The notes: a model not told the origin generated them from the letters alone. A DNA stretch of 27,619 nucleotides, filler included, from an uncultured virus (IMG/VR IMGVR_UViG_2049941000_000851) (9 parts of one record of this genome joined end to end with filler, not necessarily neighbours in it), one strand, 5' to 3'; positions 1 to 21,452 are shown, counted from the first letter of the whole stretch. Numbers and translations are program-made.

Positions 1-284
1 CGGTGCAGTACGTGGTGTATTCATCTACCACGACTGAATCATCGCATCAGGATGATCATGTGACCTCGTTCAGGACATATGTGTACTTAAACCTGTGGAG
101 CGATATCGACCCGACAGATATGGCGAATACCATACGCGAAGCCATGTACAGCTATGGTTTTTCCATACTGGAAGAGTCGGACAAGGGGTATAATCAACCC
201 TCCTACGACACCGCCACCCGGCAGTACACCGTTCAATGGACATGGGTCCTGTATGAGGAGAAAAGCTATGCCGCTGGAGTTTAG
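1..284 (+). CDS. Phage tail completion/terminator-like protein, C-terminal part (5'-truncated)
   Basis: QYVVYSSTTTE...FRTYVYLNLWSDIDP...MYSYGF...YDTATRQYTVQWTW. Its stop overlaps the start of the gp10-like gene. A matching N-terminus (MRQVQEAL) follows the head closure gene at 16762. Function is inferred from composition and position. Confidence 0.65.
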   Translation, partial: VQYVVYSSTTTESSHQDDHVTSFRTYVYLNLWSDIDPTDMANTIREAMYSYGFSILEESDKGYNQPSYDTATRQYTVQWTWVLYEEKSYAAGV

Positions 285-561
285 AGGGTTCGATGAACTG
301 AGCAATGACCTGGGCAAAATGGCCGCCGCCCTGAGCGACGATGGTCCCGTCATAAACAAAGCGCTCAAAGCCGGAGCCATGCCCATCGAGGAGCAGATGA
401 AGATGAATGCGTCCAGTGATCCGAAGATCATCACCGGCGATCTGTATTCGTCCATTCATACCCACGGCGTAAAACACAAAATGGGCGGCTCCGGCAAACA
501 CATCACCATCGGCGTAAAGCACAGTGAAAGAGGCGCGTACTATTCAAACGCTGTCGAGTAC
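268..561 (+). CDS. HK97 gp10-family tail/neck protein, allele 1 (3'-truncated by gap)
   Basis: GAGGAG RBS at 255-260, ATG at 268. MPLEFRGFDELSNDL...ALKAGAMPI...TGDLYSSI...AYYSNAVEY. Nearly the same protein as 3877-4173. Confidence 0.85.
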
Positions 562-871
562 NNNNNNNNNNATCATAGATCACGCTGAATGAATGCGGCA
601 GCCGGGCCAAAGGATAAAGCTAAAGCTGGAAATAAGACGAAAGCGCAAGGGACAGAGGAACCACAGAGGAGACGCTGAAAGGCGAAGTGAGAAAACGCGC
701 TCTCTCCAACAGGCAGGAAATGGCCTGTGAATCTGTGGGGCAGCAGCCCGTAGTAGCAATGACGCAAGGAATAATAAACCTTGCAGAGCGAAGGGGCATA
801 GTCTGTACAGGAATACTGTACAGCCGTAACTTGTTGAGGAAGCCGTAGGCGAACCTGACTAACACCAAACA

Positions 872-901
872 AACCATTTCCGAAAGGGGGTGGTTCGTAT
901 G
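872..901 (+). promoter_or_regulatory. DIVa-like GAAA-tetraloop hairpin containing the IEP ribosome-binding site
   Basis: AACCATTTCC-GAAA-GGGGGTGGTT (872-895) forms a 10-bp stem with G-U pairs that covers the purine-rich SD; ATG at 899. Confidence 0.6.
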
Positions 902-1362
902 GCACAACAATTCAACTACCCGCATTCCGAGACAGAATTACGTGCAACTCAGGATGAACTCTACCGAACGGCTAAAGCCGCACATGACAAAGGAGAGCGA
1001 CCGTCATTTGTCGGGCTCATAGAAATCATGTCGGCTAAGGCAACGATCAACACGGCAATTCACAACATCAAAGCCAATAAGGGCGCAAATACGCCCGGCG
1101 TTGACAGGGTGAAAATCCAACATTATCTGCAAAGCAGAGAAGATTGGGTAATCAGTGATATTCAAAGCGCTTTCCGGCACTATGTACCGAGAATGGTTCG
1201 GAGAAAGTACATAGACAAGCCGGGAAAAACGGAGAAAAGGCCGCTGGGCATACCCACGATAAGGGACAGGATTGTTCAGGAATGTGCGCGCATTGTGCTC
1301 GAACCTATCATGGAAGCTCAGTTCTATGAGCACTCATATGGATTCAGGCCGATGCGGGACAC
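899..1362 (+). CDS. ltrA: Group II intron reverse transcriptase/maturase, N-terminal part (RT0-RT2)
   Basis: MAQQFNYP...IKANKGANTPGVD...VRRKYIDKPGKTEKRPLGIPTIRDRIVQ...LEPIMEAQFYEHSYGFRP, canonical group II RT motifs. Confidence 0.95.
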
Positions 1363-1372
1363 NNNNNNNNNN

Positions 1373-1417
1373 CTTGAAGCTGATCTCGGGATCCGGATAC
1401 AGGGTGTCAAACTCGAT
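1373..1417 (-). CDS. Major tail protein, start of 3' exon (IEFDTLYPDPEISFK)
   Basis: ATCGAGTTTGACACCCTGTATCCGGATCCCGAGATCAGCTTCAA is identical to the intron-free MTP allele at 8679-8636 and directly follows the intron 3' end. Confidence 0.9.
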
Positions 1418-1550
1418 ATAGTGATAGGTAAAGAACGTCTTTTACATTGACCACCTTTCGGTTTTACTGGTCAACGCAGTCAGGGTCTTTTTCCCCCACT
1501 TCGCACCGTACGTGCGCCTTTCAGCGCATACGGCGCTCCATCTGTACAAA
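1418..1550 (-). ncRNA. Group II intron catalytic domain V, domain VI and 3' splice site
   Basis: Minus strand: DV GCGCCGTATGCGC-TGAAAG-GCGCACGTACGGTGC (1536-1503; CGC triad, AC bulge), then GAAGTGGGGGAAAA...TTACCTATCACTAT ending in AY at 1418. This layout resembles bacterial class B introns. Confidence 0.95.
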
Positions 1551-1551
1551 C

Positions 1552-2211
1552 TCACGTGTGCCGTAACTTTTTCCTTAATTCCAATATCTTCCTTCGTGCT
1601 TTGGGGGGCATGTGCGAGAAATCGGCGGTAGGATTATTGACCAGACGATAACAGGCAGCATCCAATGACATCAGATTGTTGACGCGGTTCACTTCGCGCA
1701 GGGGAAGAAACGGGTCTATCCGTTGTGTGCACGGCATTTTGTCGATCAGCCATGCCCCGCAGATTCGACATTTGAGCCTGTCACGATTCAGGGCATACGC
1801 CCGGTTCATGTAGTACTCAAAGTTGTTCTTTGGGTCTGCCCGTCCGAGAATAACCGTATTGGCGGGGCCAATTGAAAGCTCATCCAACCGGGCATTCTGC
1901 CGCGTTTTCTTCGTCCTGTCGAAATGTATCTGCCGTCCTTCATCGCTATAGGGTGTTTCGTCTTGGTTGTGGTAGACTGTTTTTACCCATTTAGCAAATC
2001 CCAGATCGGTGACACCTACCCATAACTCTTTGTATGGGATTGCAACAATCTTCGCTCTTTGTTTGCCGTGGACACTCGGTAGGGTTGAGGTTTTATCCGC
2101 ACGAACCCACCTGGCGCTGTATTTCTTGAGTGCCTTGTGTGCTGCACGCTGCAAATACTGTCGGTACCTTTTGAACGCTACAGTGACCCACGTGGTATTT
2201 TCATAGTAGTT
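1552..2211 (-). CDS. ltrA: Group II intron IEP, C-terminal part (thumb/X, DNA-binding, degenerate HNH), variant A
   Basis: NYYENTTWV...NFEYYMNRAYALNRDRLKCRICG...VNRVNNLMSL...LRKKLRHT*. The TGA stop at 1554-1552 lies just upstream of DV. Confidence 0.92.
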   Translation of the reverse strand, partial: NYYENTTWVTVAFKRYRQYLQRAAHKALKKYSARWVRADKTSTLPSVHGKQRAKIVAIPYKELWVGVTDLGFAKWVKTVYHNQDETPYSDEGRQIHFDRTKKTRQNARLDELSIGPANTVILGRADPKNNFEYYMNRAYALNRDRLKCRICGAWLIDKMPCTQRIDPFLPLREVNRVNNLMSLDAACYRLVNNPTADFSHMPPKARRKILELRKKLRHT

Positions 2212-2221
2212 NNNNNNNNNN

Positions 2222-3046
2222 AATGTACCTCTTACGAACGTCGGTTATAAGCGTTTTCTCCGGTGAGAGCGTTAGCTTCATTTCCTTCGCGAGGAAAAGA
2301 CCGATTCTTTCTTTCCAAAACTCGGCATGTTCACGGCTGTCCGTGATAACGACGAAATCATCCGCATATCTGACCAAGACCCCGGGTATGAGAGAACTGC
2401 GTTTCCGTAGTGCTTCCATTTTGGCGCTTTGGTCGCTATAGGTGGTATGCACTTTCTTTTTGATCCACTGCTTTGCCACATATTCATCCAGTATATCCAG
2501 ATAAACGTTTGCTAGCAGTGGAGAAAGAATACCTCCCTGCGGAGTTCCTTCTTCGTTTACATCACATTCGTCCATGATGCCCGCTTTGAGCATGGATTTT
2601 ATGATCATCAGCACTCTTTGGTCCTTGACCCCCATGTGGTACAGGCGTTTCAGGAGAGTACTGTGGTCTATCCTGTCAAAGCATTTGGAGATGTCACCCT
2701 CGACAATCCAGTGATAGCCATTCTGATGCACCGTTCCCGTGATTCGTTCCAGCGCCATTTTTGTGTCCCGCATCGGCCTGAATCCATAAGAATGCTCATA
2801 GAATTGAGCTTCCATGATGGGTTCGAGTACGATGCGCGCACATTCCTGAACAATCCTGTCCCTTATCGTGGGGATGCCCAGCGGCCTTTTCTCCGTTTTC
2901 CCCGGCTTGTCTATGTATTTTCTCCGAACCATTTTCGGTACATAGTGCCGGAAAGCGCTTTGGATGTCACTGATTACCCAATCTTCTCTGCTTTGCAGAT
3001 AGTGTTGGATTTTCACTCTATCAACGCCGGGCGTATTTGCGCCCTT
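2222..3046 (-). CDS. ltrA: Group II intron IEP, RT core (RT0-RT7)
   Basis: KRPLGIPTIRDR, SYGFRP, WIVEGDISKCFDRIDH, GTPQGGILSPLLANVYL, VRYADDFVV (YADD at 2368-2357), LTLSPEKT. Confidence 0.97.
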
Positions 3047-3056
3047 NNNNNNNNNN

Positions 3057-3866
3057 TTATATACCCCGGACGATACCAAACAGGAAGCGGCTGAAACGCA
3101 AGATCGAGGAAATCCACGCAAATATTGTCTCCATTCCGGCGAACATAAACAGGGACGTAGTGATACAGAAAATCCATCTGATCAACAGTCAGATACGAGG
3201 ACTGGTAAACTACTATGAAAATACCACATGGGTCACTGTTGCGTTCAAAAGGTATAGGCAATATTTACAACACGCAGCACATAAGGCACTCAAGAAATAC
3301 GGTGCCAAATGGGTTCGTGCGGATAAAACTTCGACCCTGCCCAGCGTACACAGCAAACAAAAGGCGAAGATTGTGGCAATCCCATACAAAGAATTATGGG
3401 TAGGAGTCACCGATCTGGGTTTCGCTAAATGGGTAAGAACGGTCTACCATAACCAGAACGAAACACCCTACAGCGAAGAAGGACGGCAGATACATTTCGA
3501 CAGGACGAAGAAAACGCGGCAGAATGCCCGGTTGGATGAGCTTTCTATAGGCCCTGCCAACACGGTGATTCTCGGACGGGCTGACCCAAAGAACAACTTT
3601 GAGTACTACATGAATCGGGCGTATGCCCTGAATCGTGACAGGCTTAAATGTCGAATCTGCGGGGCATGGCTGATCGATAAAATGCCGTGCACACAACGGA
3701 TAAATCCATTTCTTCCCCTGCGCGAAGTGAACCGCGTCAATAATCTGATGTCTTTGGATGCTGCCTGTTACCGTTTGGTCAATAACCCAACTGCCGATTA
3801 CTCGCACATGCCCCCGAAAGCACGAAGGAAGATATTGGAATTAAGGAAAAAGTTACGGCACACGTG
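3057..3866 (+). CDS. ltrA: Group II intron IEP, C-terminal part, variant B
   Basis: INSQIRGLVNYY thumb motif through ...LRKKLRHT. About 10 aa differences from variant A over the shared ~219 aa (manual count). Confidence 0.92.
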
Positions 3867-3876
3867 NNNNNNNNNN

Positions 3877-4173
3877 ATTGAGGAACAGATGAAAGCGAAC
3901 GCGTCCAGTGACCCCAAGATCATCACCGGCGACCTGTACTCGTCTATTCACACACATGGCGTAAAGCACAAAAGAGGCGGTTCCGGCAAGCAGATCACCA
4001 TCGGCGTAAAGCACAGTGAAAAGGGCGCATTTTACGCAAACCCGGTCGAATGGGGGCACGGCGGACCGGCTCCGGCTCCGCCGCATCCCTTCGTCCGTCC
4101 CGCCTTCGACGTCCGCTACCCGGACGCCTGTGAAGAAATGAAGCGCGTGCTCAGGGACGCGCTGAAACCGTAA
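3877..4173 (+). CDS. HK97 gp10-family protein, allele 2, C-terminal part
   Basis: ...FYANPVEWGHGGPAPAPPHPFVRPAFD...LRDALKP*. The VExG...HPFxRPA motif is typical of HK97 gp10. Confidence 0.88.
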   Translation: MEEQMKANASSDPKIITGDLYSSIHTHGVKHKRGGSGKQITIGVKHSEKGAFYANPVEWGHGGPAPAPPHPFVRPAFDVRYPDACEEMKRVLRDALKP

Positions 4174-4206: not shown

Positions 4207-4398
4207 ATGGCAAACAACAATCCTACCGCTTCCCCCAAAGTATCCTCCACGATCGGTCTCAAGAACGTGGTCATCGCGCCGCTCCTGACCGATACGGATG
4301 AGGGCCACAGTTACGGCGACTTGCAGTTGGTTGCCGGCGCGATCGAGGCCAGCGTCACCCCGGACAACTCAGATCCTTCGATTCAATACGCGGACGAC
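4207..4398 (+). CDS. Major tail protein, exon 1 (64 codons, interrupted by group II intron)
   Basis: AAGGAG RBS at 4191-4196. MANNNPTASPKVSSTIGLKNVVIAPL...AGAIEASVTP...IQYADD is a phi13-type MTP N-terminus and is followed at once by GTGCG. Confidence 0.88.
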
Positions 4399-4412
4399 GT
4401 GCGCTCTGTTGC
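4399..4412 (+). mobile_element. Group II intron 5' end (GUGYG consensus)
   Basis: GTGCGCTCTGTTGC begins exactly where the intron-free allele continues ATCGAGTTT. CTCTGT is complementary to ACAGAG at 652-657. Only 14 nt are visible before the gap. Confidence 0.85.
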
Positions 4413-4422
4413 NNNNNNNNNN

Positions 4423-6657
4423 AATCATGGCCTGCAGTTCGTCGCGCTTCCGTTTCCACGCGGCCAGGTAATTTGGATTAAAGTATATATCGACTACGTT
4501 CCAGCCCTCGTCCGCGGACATCTCCCTGAGCGCTTTCTCAGACGAGCCCAGCTTCTCGGATAAACGTACGTAGTCCGCCAGGAAACCCAGCGCCTCGTCC
4601 ATACTCTGCTTCTCGTAATACATATCTCCGGAAGGACCGTTGACGGCGAGGCCTTTCATACCGCTGTATTCACGCTGGAAAGCGGTATAGGCGGTAAGGA
4701 ACCTGTCATAGGCTTCGGGGACTTCCAGCCCGTATTCCTTTAAAGCGTCGACATACTCTTTTACGCCGGAATAGTAGTCCTCCCATGCCTTCATGTTGAG
4801 ACTGCCCATGTACTCGTTTGCCTTGGAAGTATACGTCTCATAATCTATAAGCCCCTGCTCGTACTGCTCCATGAGCTGCCGGTACGTTCGGGCGTTCTTT
4901 TCCGCGCCGGCTGTATTGGTCTCCGCGTTGGTGAGCGCCGACGCCTTATTGTACTTCGAATCCTTTATGCGTTGATCGTACCCGGCAGCCTCTTTGCCCG
5001 CCTGTGAGTATATGTCAAAAGCTTCCAGGTACGCCTGCTCTTCCGCGGTAAGCTCCCTTGTGAGCGCACGGATGTCATCCGCTTTCTGTTTGTACGCGGA
5101 CCAGAGAAAGCGCTCGCCCTGGGAAGCTATGAGTCCGGATATGTCCGGGCTCTCCTCTTTAGCTGCTTCGACTTCTTTGTTCATCTGCGAGAGCCGCTCT
5201 GTCATGGTTCCCAGGCTGGTCGTACCGTACTTCGCGCCGTCCGCCATGCTCCTTAGATAGTCCGGAAGCTCAGCGGCTTTCACGTTTATACCCACTGAAG
5301 CCAGTTCCGCCAGGGTGCTGTTCACCAGTTCCATGTTCTTTCCGCTGGCGTTGGCAGCCTCGGTGGCGTCGGCCATGTCATTCAGGAACTGTATGACTTC
5401 ATCACTGTAGGCTGAGTATGAGTTCCTGCCGTCGTTCACGGCGTTGGTGAGCATGGCGGTGGCTTCGGCGAACTCTGTTATCTCATATGGCGACAGGTCT
5501 TTCGTGAAGAAGTCCTGCACGTCGTTTATAGCTCCGCCCACCCAGTCCGCGGCGTCGTTTAAAGCGCCTATGAACCCGGTATCGCTGTCGCCGAACCAGT
5601 GCATGGTGCCGCCTTTCGCCATAAACGCCCGGTACTGATCCCATTTGCTGGTGAGCTTCCTGTATGTATCGGTATCCGGAGCGAACTCCTTATTGAACTG
5701 CCGTATATCCTCGTCATCAGCTTCCGCCCATTCGGGCTTCACTATAACGTGGTATACCCCTGCCGCGTCAACGCCCACTATGATGCTGTCAGCAGTCAGC
5801 TGCTTCAGTACGTCCGGCGTCACGGGCAAAGGTAAACCGTTTGCTCCGTATACCGCCAGCAGGCCGGAGTCATACTTCTCCTTAAGCGCAGCCTGCCAGC
5901 CTTCGCCCAGGGACACTGAGGCGTTGAGGCCCACGGAAGATGTGAGATCTACCTTAGGCTCATTGATCGTCTTCCACGCCTTGAGCGCAGCGGCGTCTAT
6001 ATCTCCCAGCGTGACTGTGGCTGTCACGGTCGGCGTAAGTCCCGCCGTGCTCGCACCTGTGATCACTTCCGCGTACGCTGACACCAACGCCAGCAGCCCA
6101 GACGGTCCGTCAAACGATCCCACAAAGCCCGCCGGGTCCTTCATGTATCCGGACACCAGCGCCGTAAGCCCCGAAGGATCAGCGAACGCGGTGTCGAACG
6201 CATCCGGGTCCTCGGCGTACGCGGATACCAGTGCCACCAGGCCTTCAGGGTTTCTGAAAAACGCGTTGAACGATACCGGGTCCTGCTGGTACGCGCTCAC
6301 CAGGGCCACCAGTCCGGATGGGCTTTGGAAGAACGAATCAAAGCTGTCCGGGTCGGCGGCATACGCCGTCACCAGCGCGCTCAGTCCGCCCGGCCCGTCA
6401 AAGTACGGTATGAACTCAGGATCCTCGGCGTAATTAGATACATAAGCCGCCAACCCTTCCGGGCTCTCGAACACCTCGCTGAAGCCCTCGGGATCTTTAG
6501 CGTACATGGATACCAGTGCTATGAGTCCTGTTGGGTTATCAAACACATCGCTGAACCCGGGAGCTTTGGCGTACATCCTTACCAAAGCGGAAAGGCCGGT
6601 CGGATTCTCGAACAGTGAGCTGAACGACGGCGCTTTCGCGTAGCCTTCCACCAATGC
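4423..6657 (-). CDS. Tape measure protein, internal fragment with 23-24 aa repeats
   Basis: Open frame of ~745 aa, Ala-rich and helical. Homologous to 24169-25205. The repeat start is linked to TMP-like helical sequence by 26010-26362. Assignment to the TMP is by inference across gaps. Confidence 0.7.
6075..6645 (-). repeat. Eight tandem 23-24 aa protein repeats, consensus YxxDPxxFxxxFxxPxGLxALVxx
   Basis: YAKAPSFSSLFENPTGLSALVRM, YAKAPGFSDVFDNPTGLIALVSM, YAKDPEGFSEVFESPEGLAAYVSN, YAEDPEFIPYFDGPGGLSALVTA, YAADPDSFDSFFQSPSGLVALVSA and three more. Confidence 0.9.
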
Positions 6658-7182: not shown

Positions 7183-7608
7183 TATGGATGACAGGTGCGA
7201 CTGCAGCGCCGCGTCCTCCCTTGAGAACACAGCCTGCGCGCTCAACACCCTTGCGTTCTGGCTTTCGATTGCGGCGTTCATGGAAGTGAGCCTGCCGCGC
7301 GCCTCGTCCAGACGCGCGCTGTACGTGGCCAAGTACCCCTGGGTCGCGCTCATCTTCGCGTTTGCCTCGCCCAGGTGCGCCGCGTACTGCCTGACCGCAG
7401 CGCTCTGGAGCGTCTGGGTGCGCATGAGCGTTTCCGCTTTCGCCATCTGTCCGCCCAGGCTGGAACCGAACCTGTCCACTCCAGCGCCGGCGAGCTTAAA
7501 TGTGCTCTCCGCCTCCTTAATGGACGCGTTGATAGCGCGCATGTTGCGGGTGAACTCGCCCGCGTCCAGGGACAGCGACACAACAAGGTCGCGTACTACA
7601 TCGCTCAT
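7183..7608 (-). CDS. Tape measure protein, N-terminus (allele class 1)
   Basis: GAGGT RBS, then MSDVVRDLVVSLSLDAGEFTRNMRAINASIKEAESTFK, directly downstream of the chaperone genes. Confidence 0.88.
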
Positions 7609-7633
7609 GCAATGAATACCTCTGTTTCTGTAT

Positions 7634-7863
7634 CTATGGTTTCAGACCCGGCCACACGTTGTCAATGGTGTTCGGCCGGGGCGCGCTTTTCTTTTTCTCC
7701 CTGCTGGCGTTCCAGGCCCTGAGCCTGATGTAGCCCACCATGTCCATTTCGTCTATATCCTTCATCCGCCAGCCGTTCTCAAGCAGCGCGTTGTATGTGG
7801 CGTATACGTACTCCGGCAGCGTCAGTCGTTCTTCGTCTCCGCTGTCGGCTTCATAGGGAATTC
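7634..7863 (-). CDS. -1 frame extension of the tail assembly chaperone (gpGT-like)
   Basis: The -1 frame reads PYEADSGDEERLTLPEYVYATYNALLENGWRMKDIDEMDMVGYIRLRAW...TIDNVWPGLKP*. It is conserved in 11324-11556 upstream of any ATG and is missing from the ORF track. Confidence 0.8.
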
Positions 7864-8187
7864 GCTGAGCGCCTCTGTGGTCGCGGTCTGTACCGCCATC
7901 AGCGCCACGGGTATGTCCACCATCAGCCGGTCGGCGGGATAGTTGTCGTATACCTCGTCGGGAGTGAACTGGTTACCAAAAAGGATGCAGAACCACTTGA
8001 CCAGCACGTCCAGCGCGTCGGGCACGCTTACCTTTTCGTCATCGCTTATGTCTTCGCCATCCGCGGCCTGTTTCGCCATACGCTGTATCCTGGCGTACAT
8101 CTTAGTGGCCGGCTCGATCTCCCTGAGCGCGCGCCCGCTTATGAAGTCCACGGTGTACTTTTTGTCTCCCAGTGTACAGGTGATCAT
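7822..8187 (-). CDS. Tail assembly chaperone (gpG-like), complete, 121 aa
   Basis: GGAGGA RBS at 8198-8193, ATG at 8187. Lies between MTP and TMP and ends ...LSEFPMKPTAETKND*. Confidence 0.85.
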   Translation of the reverse strand: MITCTLGDKKYTVDFISGRALREIEPATKMYARIQRMAKQAADGEDISDDEKVSVPDALDVLVKWFCILFGNQFTPDEVYDNYPADRLMVDIPVALMAVQTATTEALSEFPMKPTAETKND

Positions 8188-8206
8188 GTATGTCCTCCTA
8201 ATGTCA

Positions 8207-8243
8207 CATAAAAGGGACGCAGGCGTCATGCCATGCGTCCCTT
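8207..8243 (-). terminator. Terminator-like hairpin after the MTP gene
   Basis: AAGGGACGCA-loop-TGCGTCCCTT followed by TTAT. The GGGACGC/GCGTCCC stem is retained in the allele at 22144-22171. Confidence 0.65.
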
Positions 8244-8259
8244 GGGTAGTCTGTTCCGC

Positions 8260-8715
8260 TTACGGCGTGAAGCTGGGCTCGTATACGGACGTAAGGAAGG
8301 TCGCCGCCTTCTCGGCGGTAAAACTGCCCTCGCCCTCGTCAGCCACCGCCTGGTAGCGCCCGTCATGCGTGCGCTTGATGGCGGTGAACTCGACCTCGGG
8401 CGTCTGGCGGTTTATGGTCTTGCCTTCCTTGGTGGCAAAGTTCTCGGTAACGGGCTTGGCCCGAACCTTATACAACCACACGTAGCGGAACTTGCCATCG
8501 CTCTTCTCGCTCTTGAAGCCTATGGCGAAGTAGGGAGGCTTGTCCTGGGCGGTGCGTATCAGCACGCCGTTGTCGTCGATCGCGTTGGCGAATATCTTTT
8601 CCTGTATAATCAGGGGAATGTCCGCCATCTTGAGTTTGAAGCTGATCTCGGGATCCGGATACAGGGTGTCAAACTCGATGTCATCAGCGAATTGGACCTC
8701 TGGGTCCGCGTTGTC
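8260..8715 (-). CDS. Major tail protein, intron-free allele (5'-truncated)
   Basis: DNADPEVQFADDIEFDTLYPDPEISFKLKMADIP...PPYFAIGFKSEKSDGKFRYVWLYKVRA...SVYEPSFTP*. Reads uninterrupted across the intron site (8680/8679). Confidence 0.92.
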   Translation of the reverse strand, partial: DNADPEVQFADDIEFDTLYPDPEISFKLKMADIPLIIQEKIFANAIDDNGVLIRTAQDKPPYFAIGFKSEKSDGKFRYVWLYKVRAKPVTENFATKEGKTINRQTPEVEFTAIKRTHDGRYQAVADEGEGSFTAEKAATFLTSVYEPSFTP

Positions 8716-20789: not shown

Positions 20790-21105
20790 CATGGCAGCTC
20801 TTGCAAAGGGGCTGCCAGTTGTTTTCATCCCAGAAAAGACTTTGCTCTCCCCTATGCGGCACGATATGATCCACAACGGTCGCCGGGGTAAGTTTGTTCT
20901 CCTTCATACATTCCACGCACAGCGGATGCAGCTGCAGATACCTCTTCCGGGCAACACGCCAGCGGGCGTCGTAACCCCTCGCGTCCGCGCCGCCGCGCAT
21001 CCTGTCGCCGCTCCACGCCATATGATCCCTGCAGAATACCTCGCCCTGCACGCAGAAACCCGGACACCCGGGATAGCGGCAGGGTCTTTGCGGTTTATTG
21101 GGCAT
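20790..21105 (-). CDS. HK97 gp74-like HNH endonuclease (3'-truncated)
   Basis: ARGYDARW...HPLCVECM...ATVVDHIVPHRG...FWDENNWQPLCKSCH. Confidence 0.93.
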
Positions 21106-21116
21106 AGATTCCTCCT

Positions 21117-21452
21117 CTACAGCAGTAAGAGTCCGCGGCTGTCGTAAACGGACTCGCCCTGGTTCTTCATGGCACGGTCCAGCGCCATTACCAGCGCCAC
21201 CGCGCCGTCGACTTTCTCCGTGCTCTTTTCCTTGTCTATCTTAAGGTTCCCGGCCGGGTCGGTGCGCACGAACACATTGTCCATGTTCCAGCGCAGCACG
21301 GGATTCCTGTTGTGCCGGATGGATCTTTCAAGCACGCGCCTCATCAGTTCTTTGGTCGGGGGACTCATATCCCTGAAGCCCTGTCCGAAGGGCACCATGG
21401 TGAAGCCGTCGTCCTGCAGCGCCTGCACCATCATCGTGGCGTTCCAGCGGTC
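21117..21452 (-). CDS. terL: Terminase large subunit, C-terminus (second allele)
   Basis: Near-identical to 18119-18453; ends SVYDSRGLLLL*. Confidence 0.93.
   Translation of the reverse strand, partial: DRWNATMMVQALQDDGFTMVPFGQGFRDMSPPTKELMRRVLERSIRHNRNPVLRWNMDNVFVRTDPAGNLKIDKEKSTEKVDGAVALVMALDRAMKNQGESVYDSRGLLLL

What the first reader, a model, noticed from the sequence alone, without database searches (positions are those of the whole stretch)
4207..4412. Group II intron inserted in-phase in a phage major tail protein gene, with both splice junctions and an empty allele visible
Seen: MTP exon 1 ends ...CAA TAC GCG GAC GAC and is followed by GTGCG (4399). On another contig, DV-DVI end in ...CTATCACTAT and are followed by ATC GAG TTT GAC (1417, minus strand). 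Joining the exons gives Q(Y/F)ADD|IEFDTLYPDPE, the same reading as the uninterrupted allele at 8260-8715. The 5' CTCTGT pairs with ACAGAG (652-657), which ties these pieces to one intron family. Known: bacterial group II introns usually sit in mobile DNA or non-essential sites, and phage introns are mostly group I. Inference: this phage cannot build a tail without maturase-assisted splicing of a highly expressed structural mRNA, so splicing could gate or time virion assembly. Caveat: the two junctions come from separate contigs and probably separate alleles.
Basis: partly seen in the sequence, partly recalled or inferred. Interest (0 to 1): 0.88.

Follow-up and report, generated by a model that had tools for sequence, protein, structure and literature searches.

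The report
Group II intron splitting phage tail gene
A self-splicing, mobile group II intron sits exactly between two codons of the major tail protein gene of gut-bacterial phages, a real and apparently still-spreading element, but of a kind first described for phages in 2025.

Summary
The window is a bag of short contigs joined by N runs. It carries major tail protein (MTP) exon 1 (4207-4398) followed by GTGCGCTCTGTTGC. It also carries DV-DVI (Rfam RF00029, 57.9 bits, 1538-1418 minus) followed by exon 2, four further intron and RT-maturase pieces, and an uninterrupted MTP allele (8260-8715).

Public contigs do: 5 of 6 IMG/VR contigs and 8 of 11 long-enough metagenome contigs with the same 5' junction hold a whole 2.74-kb intron and an in-frame exon 2. 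One DNA-run contig bridges 4412 to 572.

The intron is IIB-like: GTGCG...AT, a CGC triad, a bulged A in DVI, an intact ~624-aa RT/maturase, and EBS1 GUCGUCG pairing with the Asp-Asp codons GAYGAY. Copies 99.3-99.5% identical sit in MTP genes only 74-78% identical, which points to recent retrohoming. The spliced frames give dN/dS of 0.12-0.27.

Splicing itself is not shown. One metatranscriptome contig joins the exons, but it could come from an intron-less allele.

Group II introns in phages were published in 2025 (PMC12350094), and four of these contigs appear in its Table S2 as raw hits. I therefore rate this a new member of a known kind. Gating of tail assembly remains untested.

The parts
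3877..4173 (+). C-terminal part of the tail-completion / Neck1 protein gene, directly upstream of the MTP gene
   Evidence: PHROG 5, E 1e-11
4207..4398 (+). MTP exon 1 (64 codons, ends ...IQYADD). The last 6 nt, GACGAC, are IBS1.
   Evidence: Translation; PHROG 88 profile positions 14-71; homologous exon 1 in L001-L006
4399..4412 (+). First 14 nt of the group II intron (GTGCGCTCTGTTGC). The contig ends here.
   Evidence: Identical to the intron 5' end in 6 IMG/VR and 24 metagenome contigs. An X3 DNA contig joins 4412 to 572.
572..898 (+). Intron RNA: 3' end of domain I (includes ACAGAG at 652-657), domains II-III and the start of IV with the IEP ribosome-binding site
   Evidence: Piece 578-1362, of which this is the 5' part, aligns to L001 intron nt 421-1202 at 87%. 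Consensus fold.
899..1362 (+). Intron-encoded protein (IEP), N-terminal 154 codons
   Evidence: Translation; weak RVT_N and RVT_1 matches; aligns to L001 intron
2222..3046 (-). IEP reverse-transcriptase domain. It overlaps the previous piece by 284 nt at 94.7%, so it is a second variant.
   Evidence: RVT_1, E 8e-32. X3 contig record 20 links 735-1336, then 2788-2222, then 3057-3866.
3057..3866 (+). IEP C-terminal part, variant 2. The contig ends within the stop codon.
   Evidence: Aligns to L001 intron 1795-2603; 91.4% identical to the 1373-2211 piece
1555..2211 (-). IEP C-terminal 219 codons, variant 1 (stop codon at 1554-1552)
   Evidence: Piece 1418-2211, which holds it, aligns to L001 intron 1945-2738. 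Piece 1373-2211 is 98.9% identical to L045.
1418..1538 (-). Intron domains V and VI with the 3' splice site (...CTATCACTAT)
   Evidence: RF00029, 57.9 bits against a gathering score of 40. The homologous L001 alignment shows a CGC triad, a bulged A and a 3' AU.
1373..1417 (-). MTP exon 2, first 15 codons (IEFDTLYPDPEISFK)
   Evidence: 44 of 45 nt identical to the empty allele. An X1 contig continues it as LKMADIPLII.
8260..8715 (-). Uninterrupted ('empty-site') MTP allele, from 12 codons before the insertion site to the stop
   Evidence: PHROG 88, 1.3e-35; TIGR01603
21708..22127 (+). Third MTP allele fragment. Its contig begins exactly at the first codon after the insertion site (TEFDTLYADPE...).
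   Evidence: The same reading continues an RNA contig of X18 after 4398.

Best explanation
This is a bona fide mobile group II intron of about 2.74 kb. It is IIB-like and matches the Rfam D1D4-5 model. It carries a ~624-aa reverse transcriptase/maturase in domain IV. It is inserted in phase 0 right after the conserved Ala-Asp-Asp codons of the phi13-type (TIGR01603) major tail protein gene of siphophages/prophages of gut Bacillota, found in ruminant and human gut.

The likely mechanism runs in four steps.
1. The late structural transcript carries the intron.
2. The IEP is translated from the unspliced RNA and helps the ribozyme fold.
3. The intron is removed as a lariat through the bulged A of DVI, restoring ...ADD|(I/V/T)EFD....
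4. The intron-IEP particle reverse-splices into empty MTP alleles. It recognises them through EBS1 (GUCGUCG) pairing with the Asp-Asp codons GAYGAY, a site that protein function keeps constant.

Shown: anatomy, boundaries, contiguity, empty sites, and near-identical introns in diverged genes. Inferred: in vivo splicing, retrohoming, and any effect on the timing of tail production. In this window the intron is seen only in pieces, from at least two variants in a mixed population.
For: Anatomy:
- 5' GTGCG and 3' AT. DV-DVI scores 55-58 bits. D1D4-5 (RF02004) scores 37-42 bits against a gathering score of 34.5 in 6 of 6 IMG/VR loci.
- The L001 alignment shows a CGC triad and a bulged A about 8 nt from the 3' end.
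- The consensus fold of domains I-III has 160 pairs, 32 of them with compensatory changes.

IEP:
- TIGR04416 group_II_RT_mat scores 317 bits against a cut-off of 300. RVT_1 gives 3e-32. The nearest solved structure is LtrA, 1e-52.
- The ORF is intact in 5 of 5 complete copies.

Contiguity:
- 5 of 6 IMG/VR loci hold an intron of 2738-2746 nt with an in-frame exon 2.
- 8 of 11 long-enough metagenome contigs do the same.
- DNA contigs of run X3 join 4412 to 572 and link pieces A, B and C in order.
- The window pieces tile L001 intron nt 421-2738.

Empty sites: the window allele and 18 of 18 close IMG/VR relatives are uninterrupted and have GAYGAY at the site.

Target pairing: GTCGTCG is present in 18 of 18 copies that reach intron nt ~370. 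It pairs with all four exon variants (GACGAC, GATGAC, GATGAT, GACGAT) by G-C or G-U pairs.

Mobility: the introns of L001, L002 and L003 are 99.3-99.5% identical over 2738 nt, while their spliced MTP coding sequences are 74-78% identical. L036, L049 and L059 add further exon contexts at 99.3% identity or more.

Function of the host gene: dN/dS of the spliced MTP is 0.116-0.270 in 10 of 10 pairs.

Phage context: the window and the loci encode terminase, portal, protease, capsid, neck, tape measure and Dit proteins.
Against: No direct proof of splicing. The only exon-exon junction seen in RNA is one X18 metatranscriptome contig of depth 4.1. Its exon 1 is 174 of 178 nt identical to the window's, and it then reads TEFDTLYADP. 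It could equally come from an intron-less allele or from DNA carried over into the library.

For the window's own exon 1 allele, only 14 nt of intron are visible. No fetched locus is more than 82% identical to that exon. The X3 bridging contig shares only 32 nt with it and has a different exon sequence upstream.

Intron nt 15-420, which include EBS1, are absent from the window.

Some copies are decayed or misassembled:
- A 180-nt remnant sits next to bacterial genes in a MAG and in 4 metagenome contigs.
- L005/L046 break off after 982-983 nt and L053 after 1868 nt.

Most divergence among the MTP genes may predate the recent insertions, so dN/dS only weakly tests function after insertion.

I could not identify EBS2. 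My candidate lies in a covarying helix instead. No HNH endonuclease domain was detected in the IEP at E <= 1, so the priming route for retrohoming is unknown.
Confidence: 0.85

Rival explanations
1. The intron is not merely tolerated. Maturase-dependent splicing of the MTP mRNA, and in some phages of neighbouring tail genes too, acts as a gate or timer for tail assembly, or gives an edge in co-infection.
For: The MTP is needed in the highest copy number of all tail proteins, and the IEP must first be translated from the unspliced late transcript. Some relatives stack introns. [quoted passage not shown] L004 has one in the neck gene. Three intron lineages about 80% identical to each other all sit at this one site, which suggests long residence. 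By analogy, the abstract of PMC1874635 (seen in the listing) states that Ll.LtrB splicing efficiency controls relaxase level and conjugation.
Against: No expression data bear on timing. 18 of 18 close relatives do without the intron, and only 1 of 18 has any group II intron within 4 kb. The patchy distribution, near-identical copies in diverged hosts and decayed copies are what a purely selfish element produces.
Confidence: 0.15
2. The intron copies in this window are inactive relics. The interrupted MTP alleles belong to defective prophages, and only the uninterrupted alleles make tails.
For: A decayed lineage exists: a 180-nt remnant appears in 5 independent assemblies. The window shows uninterrupted alleles in the same sample. 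The window's intron is fragmentary, so its integrity cannot be checked end to end.
Against: All window IEP pieces are open reading frames without stops. L045 is 95.7-98.9% identical to three of the four window intron pieces and 91.7% to the fourth, and it is complete with an in-frame exon 2 of 139 codons. The IEP is intact in 5 of 5 complete IMG/VR copies.
Confidence: 0.1
3. The exon-intron junctions are assembly chimeras between a phage and an unrelated chromosomal group II intron.
For: The window is a set of short contigs broken at repeats. Some public contigs switch to unrelated sequence inside the intron.
Against: The same two junctions, at the same codon, recur in 13 complete contigs from different assemblies and habitats. 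Exon sequences differ among them and the frame is always preserved. In IMG/VR this intron's 5' end occurs only at this MTP site, in 6 of 6 matches.
Confidence: 0.01

Closest known systems
Phage group II introns catalogued by Merk, Jones and Eddy, NAR 2025 (PMC12350094), for example the Listeria phage LPJP1 DNA-polymerase intron (IIB, D1D4-5, CGC triad, GTGCG...AT, RVT ORF, 2547 nt)
   Same: Same Rfam models, same subtype signature, an RT-encoding ORF, and location in an essential phage gene with an intron-less homologue. The DV of the window piece matches LPJP1, AR9/PBS1 and c-st at 85-90% over ~55 nt. The contigs behind L001, L003, L004 and L006 are listed as raw hits in that paper's Table S2.
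   Different: The host gene is the major tail protein, which is not among the 20 curated cases. Table S1 lists a 'minor tail protein' in c-st and a terminase in LPJP1. That paper does not annotate host genes for its IMG/VR hits. It does not report the same-site lineage, near-identical copies in diverged alleles, or two introns in one MTP.
Ll.LtrB (Lactococcus lactis relaxase intron) and its IEP LtrA
   Same: LtrA is the closest solved IEP, 1e-52. Both are mobile introns in a gene on which the spread of a mobile element depends.
   Different: From recall, Ll.LtrB is IIA with an HNH endonuclease domain. Here the RNA is IIB-like, and no HNH or Intron_maturas2 Pfam hit was found. The GIIM match is below threshold, E 0.045.
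Group I introns in capsid and tail genes of Cluster J mycobacteriophages (PMC3706429)
   Same: Both are self-splicing introns in virion structural genes. That paper reports that the Cluster J introns are spliced efficiently during late expression (passages read).
   Different: Those are group I introns with or without a homing endonuclease. This one is a group II retroelement.

Membership tests
Group II intron (self-splicing ribozyme) | Conserved 5' GUGYG and 3' AY boundaries at the exon junctions | tested here: met
   GTGCG at 4399. ...CTATCACTAT ends at 1418 on the minus strand. The same holds in L001-L004 and L006.
Group II intron (self-splicing ribozyme) | Domain V with a catalytic triad, and domain VI with a bulged branch-point A | tested here: met
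   RF00029 scores 57.9 bits against 40 in the window. The L001 alignment shows a CGC triad and a bulged A 8 nt from the 3' end.
Group II intron (self-splicing ribozyme) | Domains I-IV fold | tested here: met
   RF02004 scores 37-42 bits against 34.5 in 6 of 6 IMG/VR relatives. RNAalifold finds 32 of 160 pairs with compensatory changes. The window itself lacks intron nt 15-420.
Group II intron (self-splicing ribozyme) | EBS1-IBS1 pairing between domain I and the last nucleotides of exon 1 | tested here: met
   GUCGUCG pairs with (N)GAYGAY over 6-7 bp in 6 of 6 IMG/VR loci. The motif is present in 18 of 18 metagenome copies that reach it. EBS1 is invariant, so there is no covariation.
Group II intron (self-splicing ribozyme) | EBS2-IBS2 and EBS3/delta pairings | tested here: inconclusive
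   The candidate GUGCUG turned out to lie in a covarying structural helix. EBS3 was not examined.
Group II intron (self-splicing ribozyme) | A discrete intervening sequence relative to an intron-less homologue, with the reading frame restored by removal | tested here: met
   The window's empty allele, 18 of 18 uninterrupted relatives, and in-frame spliced products of 198-208 aa.
Group II intron (self-splicing ribozyme) | Splicing activity (ligated exons and a lariat) | not testable with these tools
   The single RNA contig with joined exons is ambiguous.
Group II intron RT/maturase (TIGR04416) | RT domain plus X/maturase region, encoded in domain IV | tested here: met
   317.2 bits against a cut-off of 300, over residues 51-435. 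The ORF lies between the D1-D4 and DV hits.
Group II intron RT/maturase (TIGR04416) | C-terminal HNH endonuclease domain (present only in some classes) | tested here: not met
   No HNH family at E <= 1 in residues 389-624. By contrast, the L004 neck-gene intron IEP has AI2M-like_HNH at 7e-22. This feature is not required for membership.
phi13-type phage major tail protein (TIGR01603 / PHROG 88) | Sequence match above the curated cut-off, and position between the neck and tape-measure genes | tested here: met
   TIGR01603 scores 83.1 bits against 35.2. PHROG 88 gives 1.3e-35. The neck gene lies upstream, and chaperone-like and tape-measure pieces lie downstream at 7183-8259.

The most novel reading that the evidence does not exclude
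A group II intron lineage has specialised on one protein-constrained Asp-Asp codon pair of siphophage major tail protein genes. It is currently retrohoming between diverged gut phages of ruminants and humans. Together with further introns in the same tail module (two in one MTP, one in the neck gene), it makes tail production depend on intron-encoded maturases. Splicing would then act as a timer or checkpoint for tail assembly, or as a weapon in phage-phage competition during co-infection.
Probability: 0.15. Interest if true: 0.75.

Novelty: new member of a known kind. Interest (0 to 1): 0.45.

Why it matters
It gives a clean, well-bounded example of a retro-mobile intron in the most abundantly needed tail protein of a phage. 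Intron-plus, intron-minus and decayed alleles are all available for comparison, and there is a sequence signature of very recent spread: introns 99% identical in genes 75% identical.

It matters practically because gene callers split or miss such MTP genes. The window's fragmentation also shows how multi-copy introns break metagenome assemblies.

It matters biologically as a tractable system for two questions. Does group II splicing limit or time late gene expression in phages? How do the introns move between phage genomes?

It does not open a new category, because phage group II introns were described in 2025.

Tried and rejected
- Whole-genome route: no genome is held for this window.
- A 3'-junction word (CTATCACTATATCGARTTYGA) found nothing in IMG/VR, because relatives differ there.
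- One search failed on a wrong frame. I replaced it with stop-to-stop ORFs.
- One search used wrong coordinates for L002, so that row is noise. I redid the work in scripts.
- EBS2: the candidate GUGCUG pairs with exon positions -15 to -10 in 4 of 6 loci and has one apparent compensatory change. I rejected it because the same bases form a covarying helix with intron columns 447-452.
- RNA evidence: metatranscriptome runs X18 and X19 held only small shares of the stretch, 0.12 and 0.08. Their contigs give one exon-exon join, one join across the neck-gene site, and one intron fragment, all at depth of about 4. None can separate spliced RNA from intron-less alleles or DNA carry-over. Uncovered parts in those runs say nothing.
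- Host-genome copies: the MAG behind L013 holds only the 180-nt remnant and no full intron. The MAG is incomplete.
- I looked for a contiguous relative of the window's own exon 1 allele among all 61 loci. The best is 81.5% identical.
- The window holds no pieces of the L004 neck-gene intron, and of the second L006 intron it shares only a 54-nt DV-like similarity.
- Earlier-findings look-up: nothing on record.
- Literature: searches for 'group II intron' with 'major tail protein'/'phage', with 'tail protein', and with 'prophage'/'retrohoming'/'virion' found no description of a group II intron in a major tail protein. The library is not exhaustive.

Full report
**What the window is.** The 27.6-kb window is not one molecule. 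It is about 50 short contigs joined by N runs, and no parent genome is held. PHROG scans show that the pieces are overlapping alleles of one siphophage structural module. They encode terminase, portal, protease, major head protein, neck/tail-completion protein, major tail protein (MTP), tape measure and Dit. The sample therefore holds a mixed population of related phages. Runs that hold the exon 1 contig are animal-gut metagenomes, mostly bovine, from 10 studies.

**Checking the observation.**
- Positions 4207-4398 (+) encode 64 residues ending IQYADD. They match PHROG 88 'major tail protein' at profile positions 14-71.
- The next 14 nt are GTGCGCTCTGTTGC, and then the contig stops.
- On another contig, Rfam's DV-DVI model RF00029 matches 1538..1418 (minus) at 57.9 bits against a gathering score of 40. 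It ends CTATCACTAT and is followed by ATCGAGTTTGAC..., which reads IEFDTLYPDPEISFK.
- A third contig (8260-8715, minus) reads DNADPEVQFADDIEFDTLYPDPEISFK... without interruption through to the stop. It matches PHROG 88 at 1.3e-35 and TIGR01603 at 83 bits against 35.
- The insertion lies between codons.

Four more contigs carry the rest of the intron. They are 572-1362 (+), 2222-3046 (-), 3057-3866 (+) and 1373-2211 (-). Together they tile nt 421-2738 of a complete relative. Where they overlap they are 94.7% and 91.4% identical, so at least two intron variants are present. Intron nt 15-420 are missing from the window.

- IMG/VR: a scan for the junction word GAYGAY+GTGCGCTCTGTTGC returned 6 contigs, all 6 in MTP exon 1. 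Five of the 6 (L001-L004, L006) hold a complete intron of 2738-2746 nt followed by an in-frame exon 2. An example is L001, QHADD|VEFDVLYPDPE.... The sixth, L005, breaks off after 982 nt of intron.
- Intron word alone: the intron's 5' end without any exon constraint finds the same 6 contigs and no others. In that collection this intron sits only at this site.
- Metagenome contigs: the junction word gave 29 matches. Five are chance matches and 24 are MTP exon 1 plus this intron. Of the 11 contigs long enough to hold the whole intron, 8 hold it with an in-frame exon 2. The other 3 are truncated at 180, 983 and 1868 nt. Some metagenome records may duplicate IMG/VR ones. L046 and L005, for example, share a contig length and a truncation point.
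- Closest relative: L045 is the nearest contiguous relative of the window's intron. The window pieces match it at 95.7, 97.3, 91.7 and 98.9%, but its exon 1 is only 79% identical to the window's.
- Laid public contigs: a DNA contig of run X3 joins 4412 to 572. It has 32 nt on the exon 1 side and about 410 unplaced letters in between, the length of the missing domain I. A 2.2-kb X3 contig links 735-1336, then 2788-2222, then 3057-3866. An X1 contig extends exon 2 into LKMADIPLII.

**What it is.** The RNA has the group II hallmarks.
- Boundaries are GTGCG...AT.
- DV carries a CGC triad, and DVI carries a bulged A 8 nt from the 3' end.
- The D1-D4 region matches RF02004 in all 6 relatives.
- The consensus fold has 160 pairs, 32 of which keep pairing through changes on both sides.
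The pairs never vary, so they neither prove nor disprove the helix.
- In Merk et al.'s Table S1, the combination of D1D4-5, CGC and GTGCG...AT is their subtype IIB.

The intron ORF has these properties.
- It is 624 aa in L001 and open in all window pieces.
- It passes NCBIfam's group II RT/maturase model at 317 bits against 300.
- It has RVT_1, and LtrA is its nearest solved relative at 1e-52.
- No HNH domain was detected.
- It is intact in 5 of 5 complete IMG/VR copies.

**How it recognises the site.** GUCGUCG at intron nt ~371-377 can pair with the last 6-7 nt of exon 1 in 6 of 6 IMG/VR loci. It is present in 18 of 18 metagenome copies that reach that position. The exon variants GACGAC, GATGAC, GATGAT and GACGAT all pair through G-C or G-U. 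These bases encode the Asp-Asp of the conserved ADD motif. The window's empty allele and 18 of 18 uninterrupted relatives all have GAYGAY there. The intron therefore targets a sequence that protein function holds fixed, the usual strategy of homing elements. I could not identify EBS2, because my candidate lies in a covarying helix.

**Evidence that it is alive.**
- Mobility: the introns of L001, L002 and L003 are 99.3-99.5% identical over 2738 nt, while their spliced MTP genes are only 74-78% identical. L036, L049 and L059 add more exon contexts at 99.3% or better. That pattern points to recent lateral movement into the same site in diverged phages.
- Age at the site: three further lineages about 80% identical to each other (L004, L006, and the window/L045 group) sit at the same site. 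The association is therefore also old, or has been renewed repeatedly.
- Host-gene function: spliced MTP genes give dN/dS of 0.116-0.270 in 10 of 10 pairs. This is weak evidence, because much of that divergence may predate insertion.
- Decay: one lineage is plainly dead. Exon 1 plus 180 nt of intron abuts peroxiredoxin and ribonucleotide reductase genes in a Bacillota MAG, and the same locus appears in four metagenome contigs. That MAG holds no full copy. This also suggests the phages are temperate.

**Splicing itself is not shown.** A metatranscriptome contig (X18, 496 nt, depth 4.1) covers 4221-4398 with 4 differences. It then runs straight into ACCGAATTCGATACC..., which reads TEFDTLYADP. 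That is the reading of a third MTP fragment in the window, whose contig starts exactly at the first codon after the insertion site (21708). This fits spliced mRNA. It fits an intron-less allele or DNA carry-over equally well. X19 holds a fragment of the intron itself.

**Comparison with what is known.** Merk, Jones and Eddy (NAR 2025, PMC12350094) searched phage genomes with the same Rfam models. I read the Results section and supplementary Tables S1 and S2. They curated 20 phage group II introns, including one in a 'minor tail protein' of phage c-st and one in the terminase of LPJP1. They also listed hits in 9,229 IMG/VR contigs. The contigs behind L001, L003, L004 and L006 are in their Table S2 as raw hits without host-gene annotation. 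Group I introns that splice efficiently from capsid and tail genes are known in Cluster J mycobacteriophages (PMC3706429, passages read). My three literature searches found no account of a group II intron in a major tail protein. The finding is therefore a new member of a known kind. What it adds is the host gene, the one-site lineage with a signature of current mobility, and the stacking of introns in the tail module.

**Verdict.** The gating idea is an untested inference, which I put at about 0.15. Interest is moderate (0.45). It is a good model system and an annotation and assembly lesson, but no longer a surprise after 2025.

Noticed in passing
L006:8967-11772 (also L035): The same 204-codon MTP gene carries a second, unrelated group II intron of 2806 nt (RF02004 at 137 bits, plus DV). 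It is inserted in phase 1 at ...YVWLYK-G|GTGCGAC...CACTAT|TG-CGC (VRAKP). That makes two introns in one tail gene. It resembles the first intron only in about 57 nt of DV.
   Followed up: partly
L004:1819-4310; window 1-561: In L004 the neck/tail-completion gene just upstream of the MTP has its own group II intron (VEF|GTGCG ... |GHGGPAPAP). Its IEP is of a different type (RVT_1 + Intron_maturas2 + AI2M-like HNH). The window contig 1-561 ends exactly at the homologous codon (…AVEY|). An X18 RNA contig joins 561 directly to 4054 (GHGG...).
   Followed up: partly
window 21708: A contig of a third MTP allele begins exactly at the first base after the intron insertion site (TEFDTLYADPE). In a de Bruijn assembly, that is what two different upstream contexts (intron-plus and intron-minus) would produce. 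It may be the true exon 2 partner of exon 1 at 4207-4398.
   Followed up: partly
window 1373-1417 vs 8635-8715: Next to the intron, exon 2 is 44 of 45 nt identical to the empty allele. The 36 nt before the site are only 25 of 36 identical between the interrupted and empty alleles (counted from the alignment printed). This could reflect mosaic alleles, or co-conversion or recombination at the site.
   Followed up: no
L013:3501-3680 (MAG), L032, L037, L043, L050: The same decayed locus recurs in five assemblies. It consists of MTP exon 1 plus 180 nt of intron fused to bacterial peroxiredoxin and ribonucleotide-reductase genes. It looks like a prophage remnant fixed in a Bacillota species.
   Followed up: partly
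L020:493-589: One of the 18 intron-less-MTP relatives has a group II DV hit about 3.4 kb upstream of its MTP, probably in a head-module gene.
   Followed up: no
window 4423-6657 (-): A 745-codon open frame fills a whole contig but has no PHROG match at 1e-5. It has the highest laid depth in X1. It was not examined.
   Followed up: no
window 20791-21240 (-): An HNH endonuclease gene (PHROG 144, 4.5e-32) lies next to terminase large-subunit fragments. This is the usual HNH-terminase pairing of cos phages.
   Followed up: no
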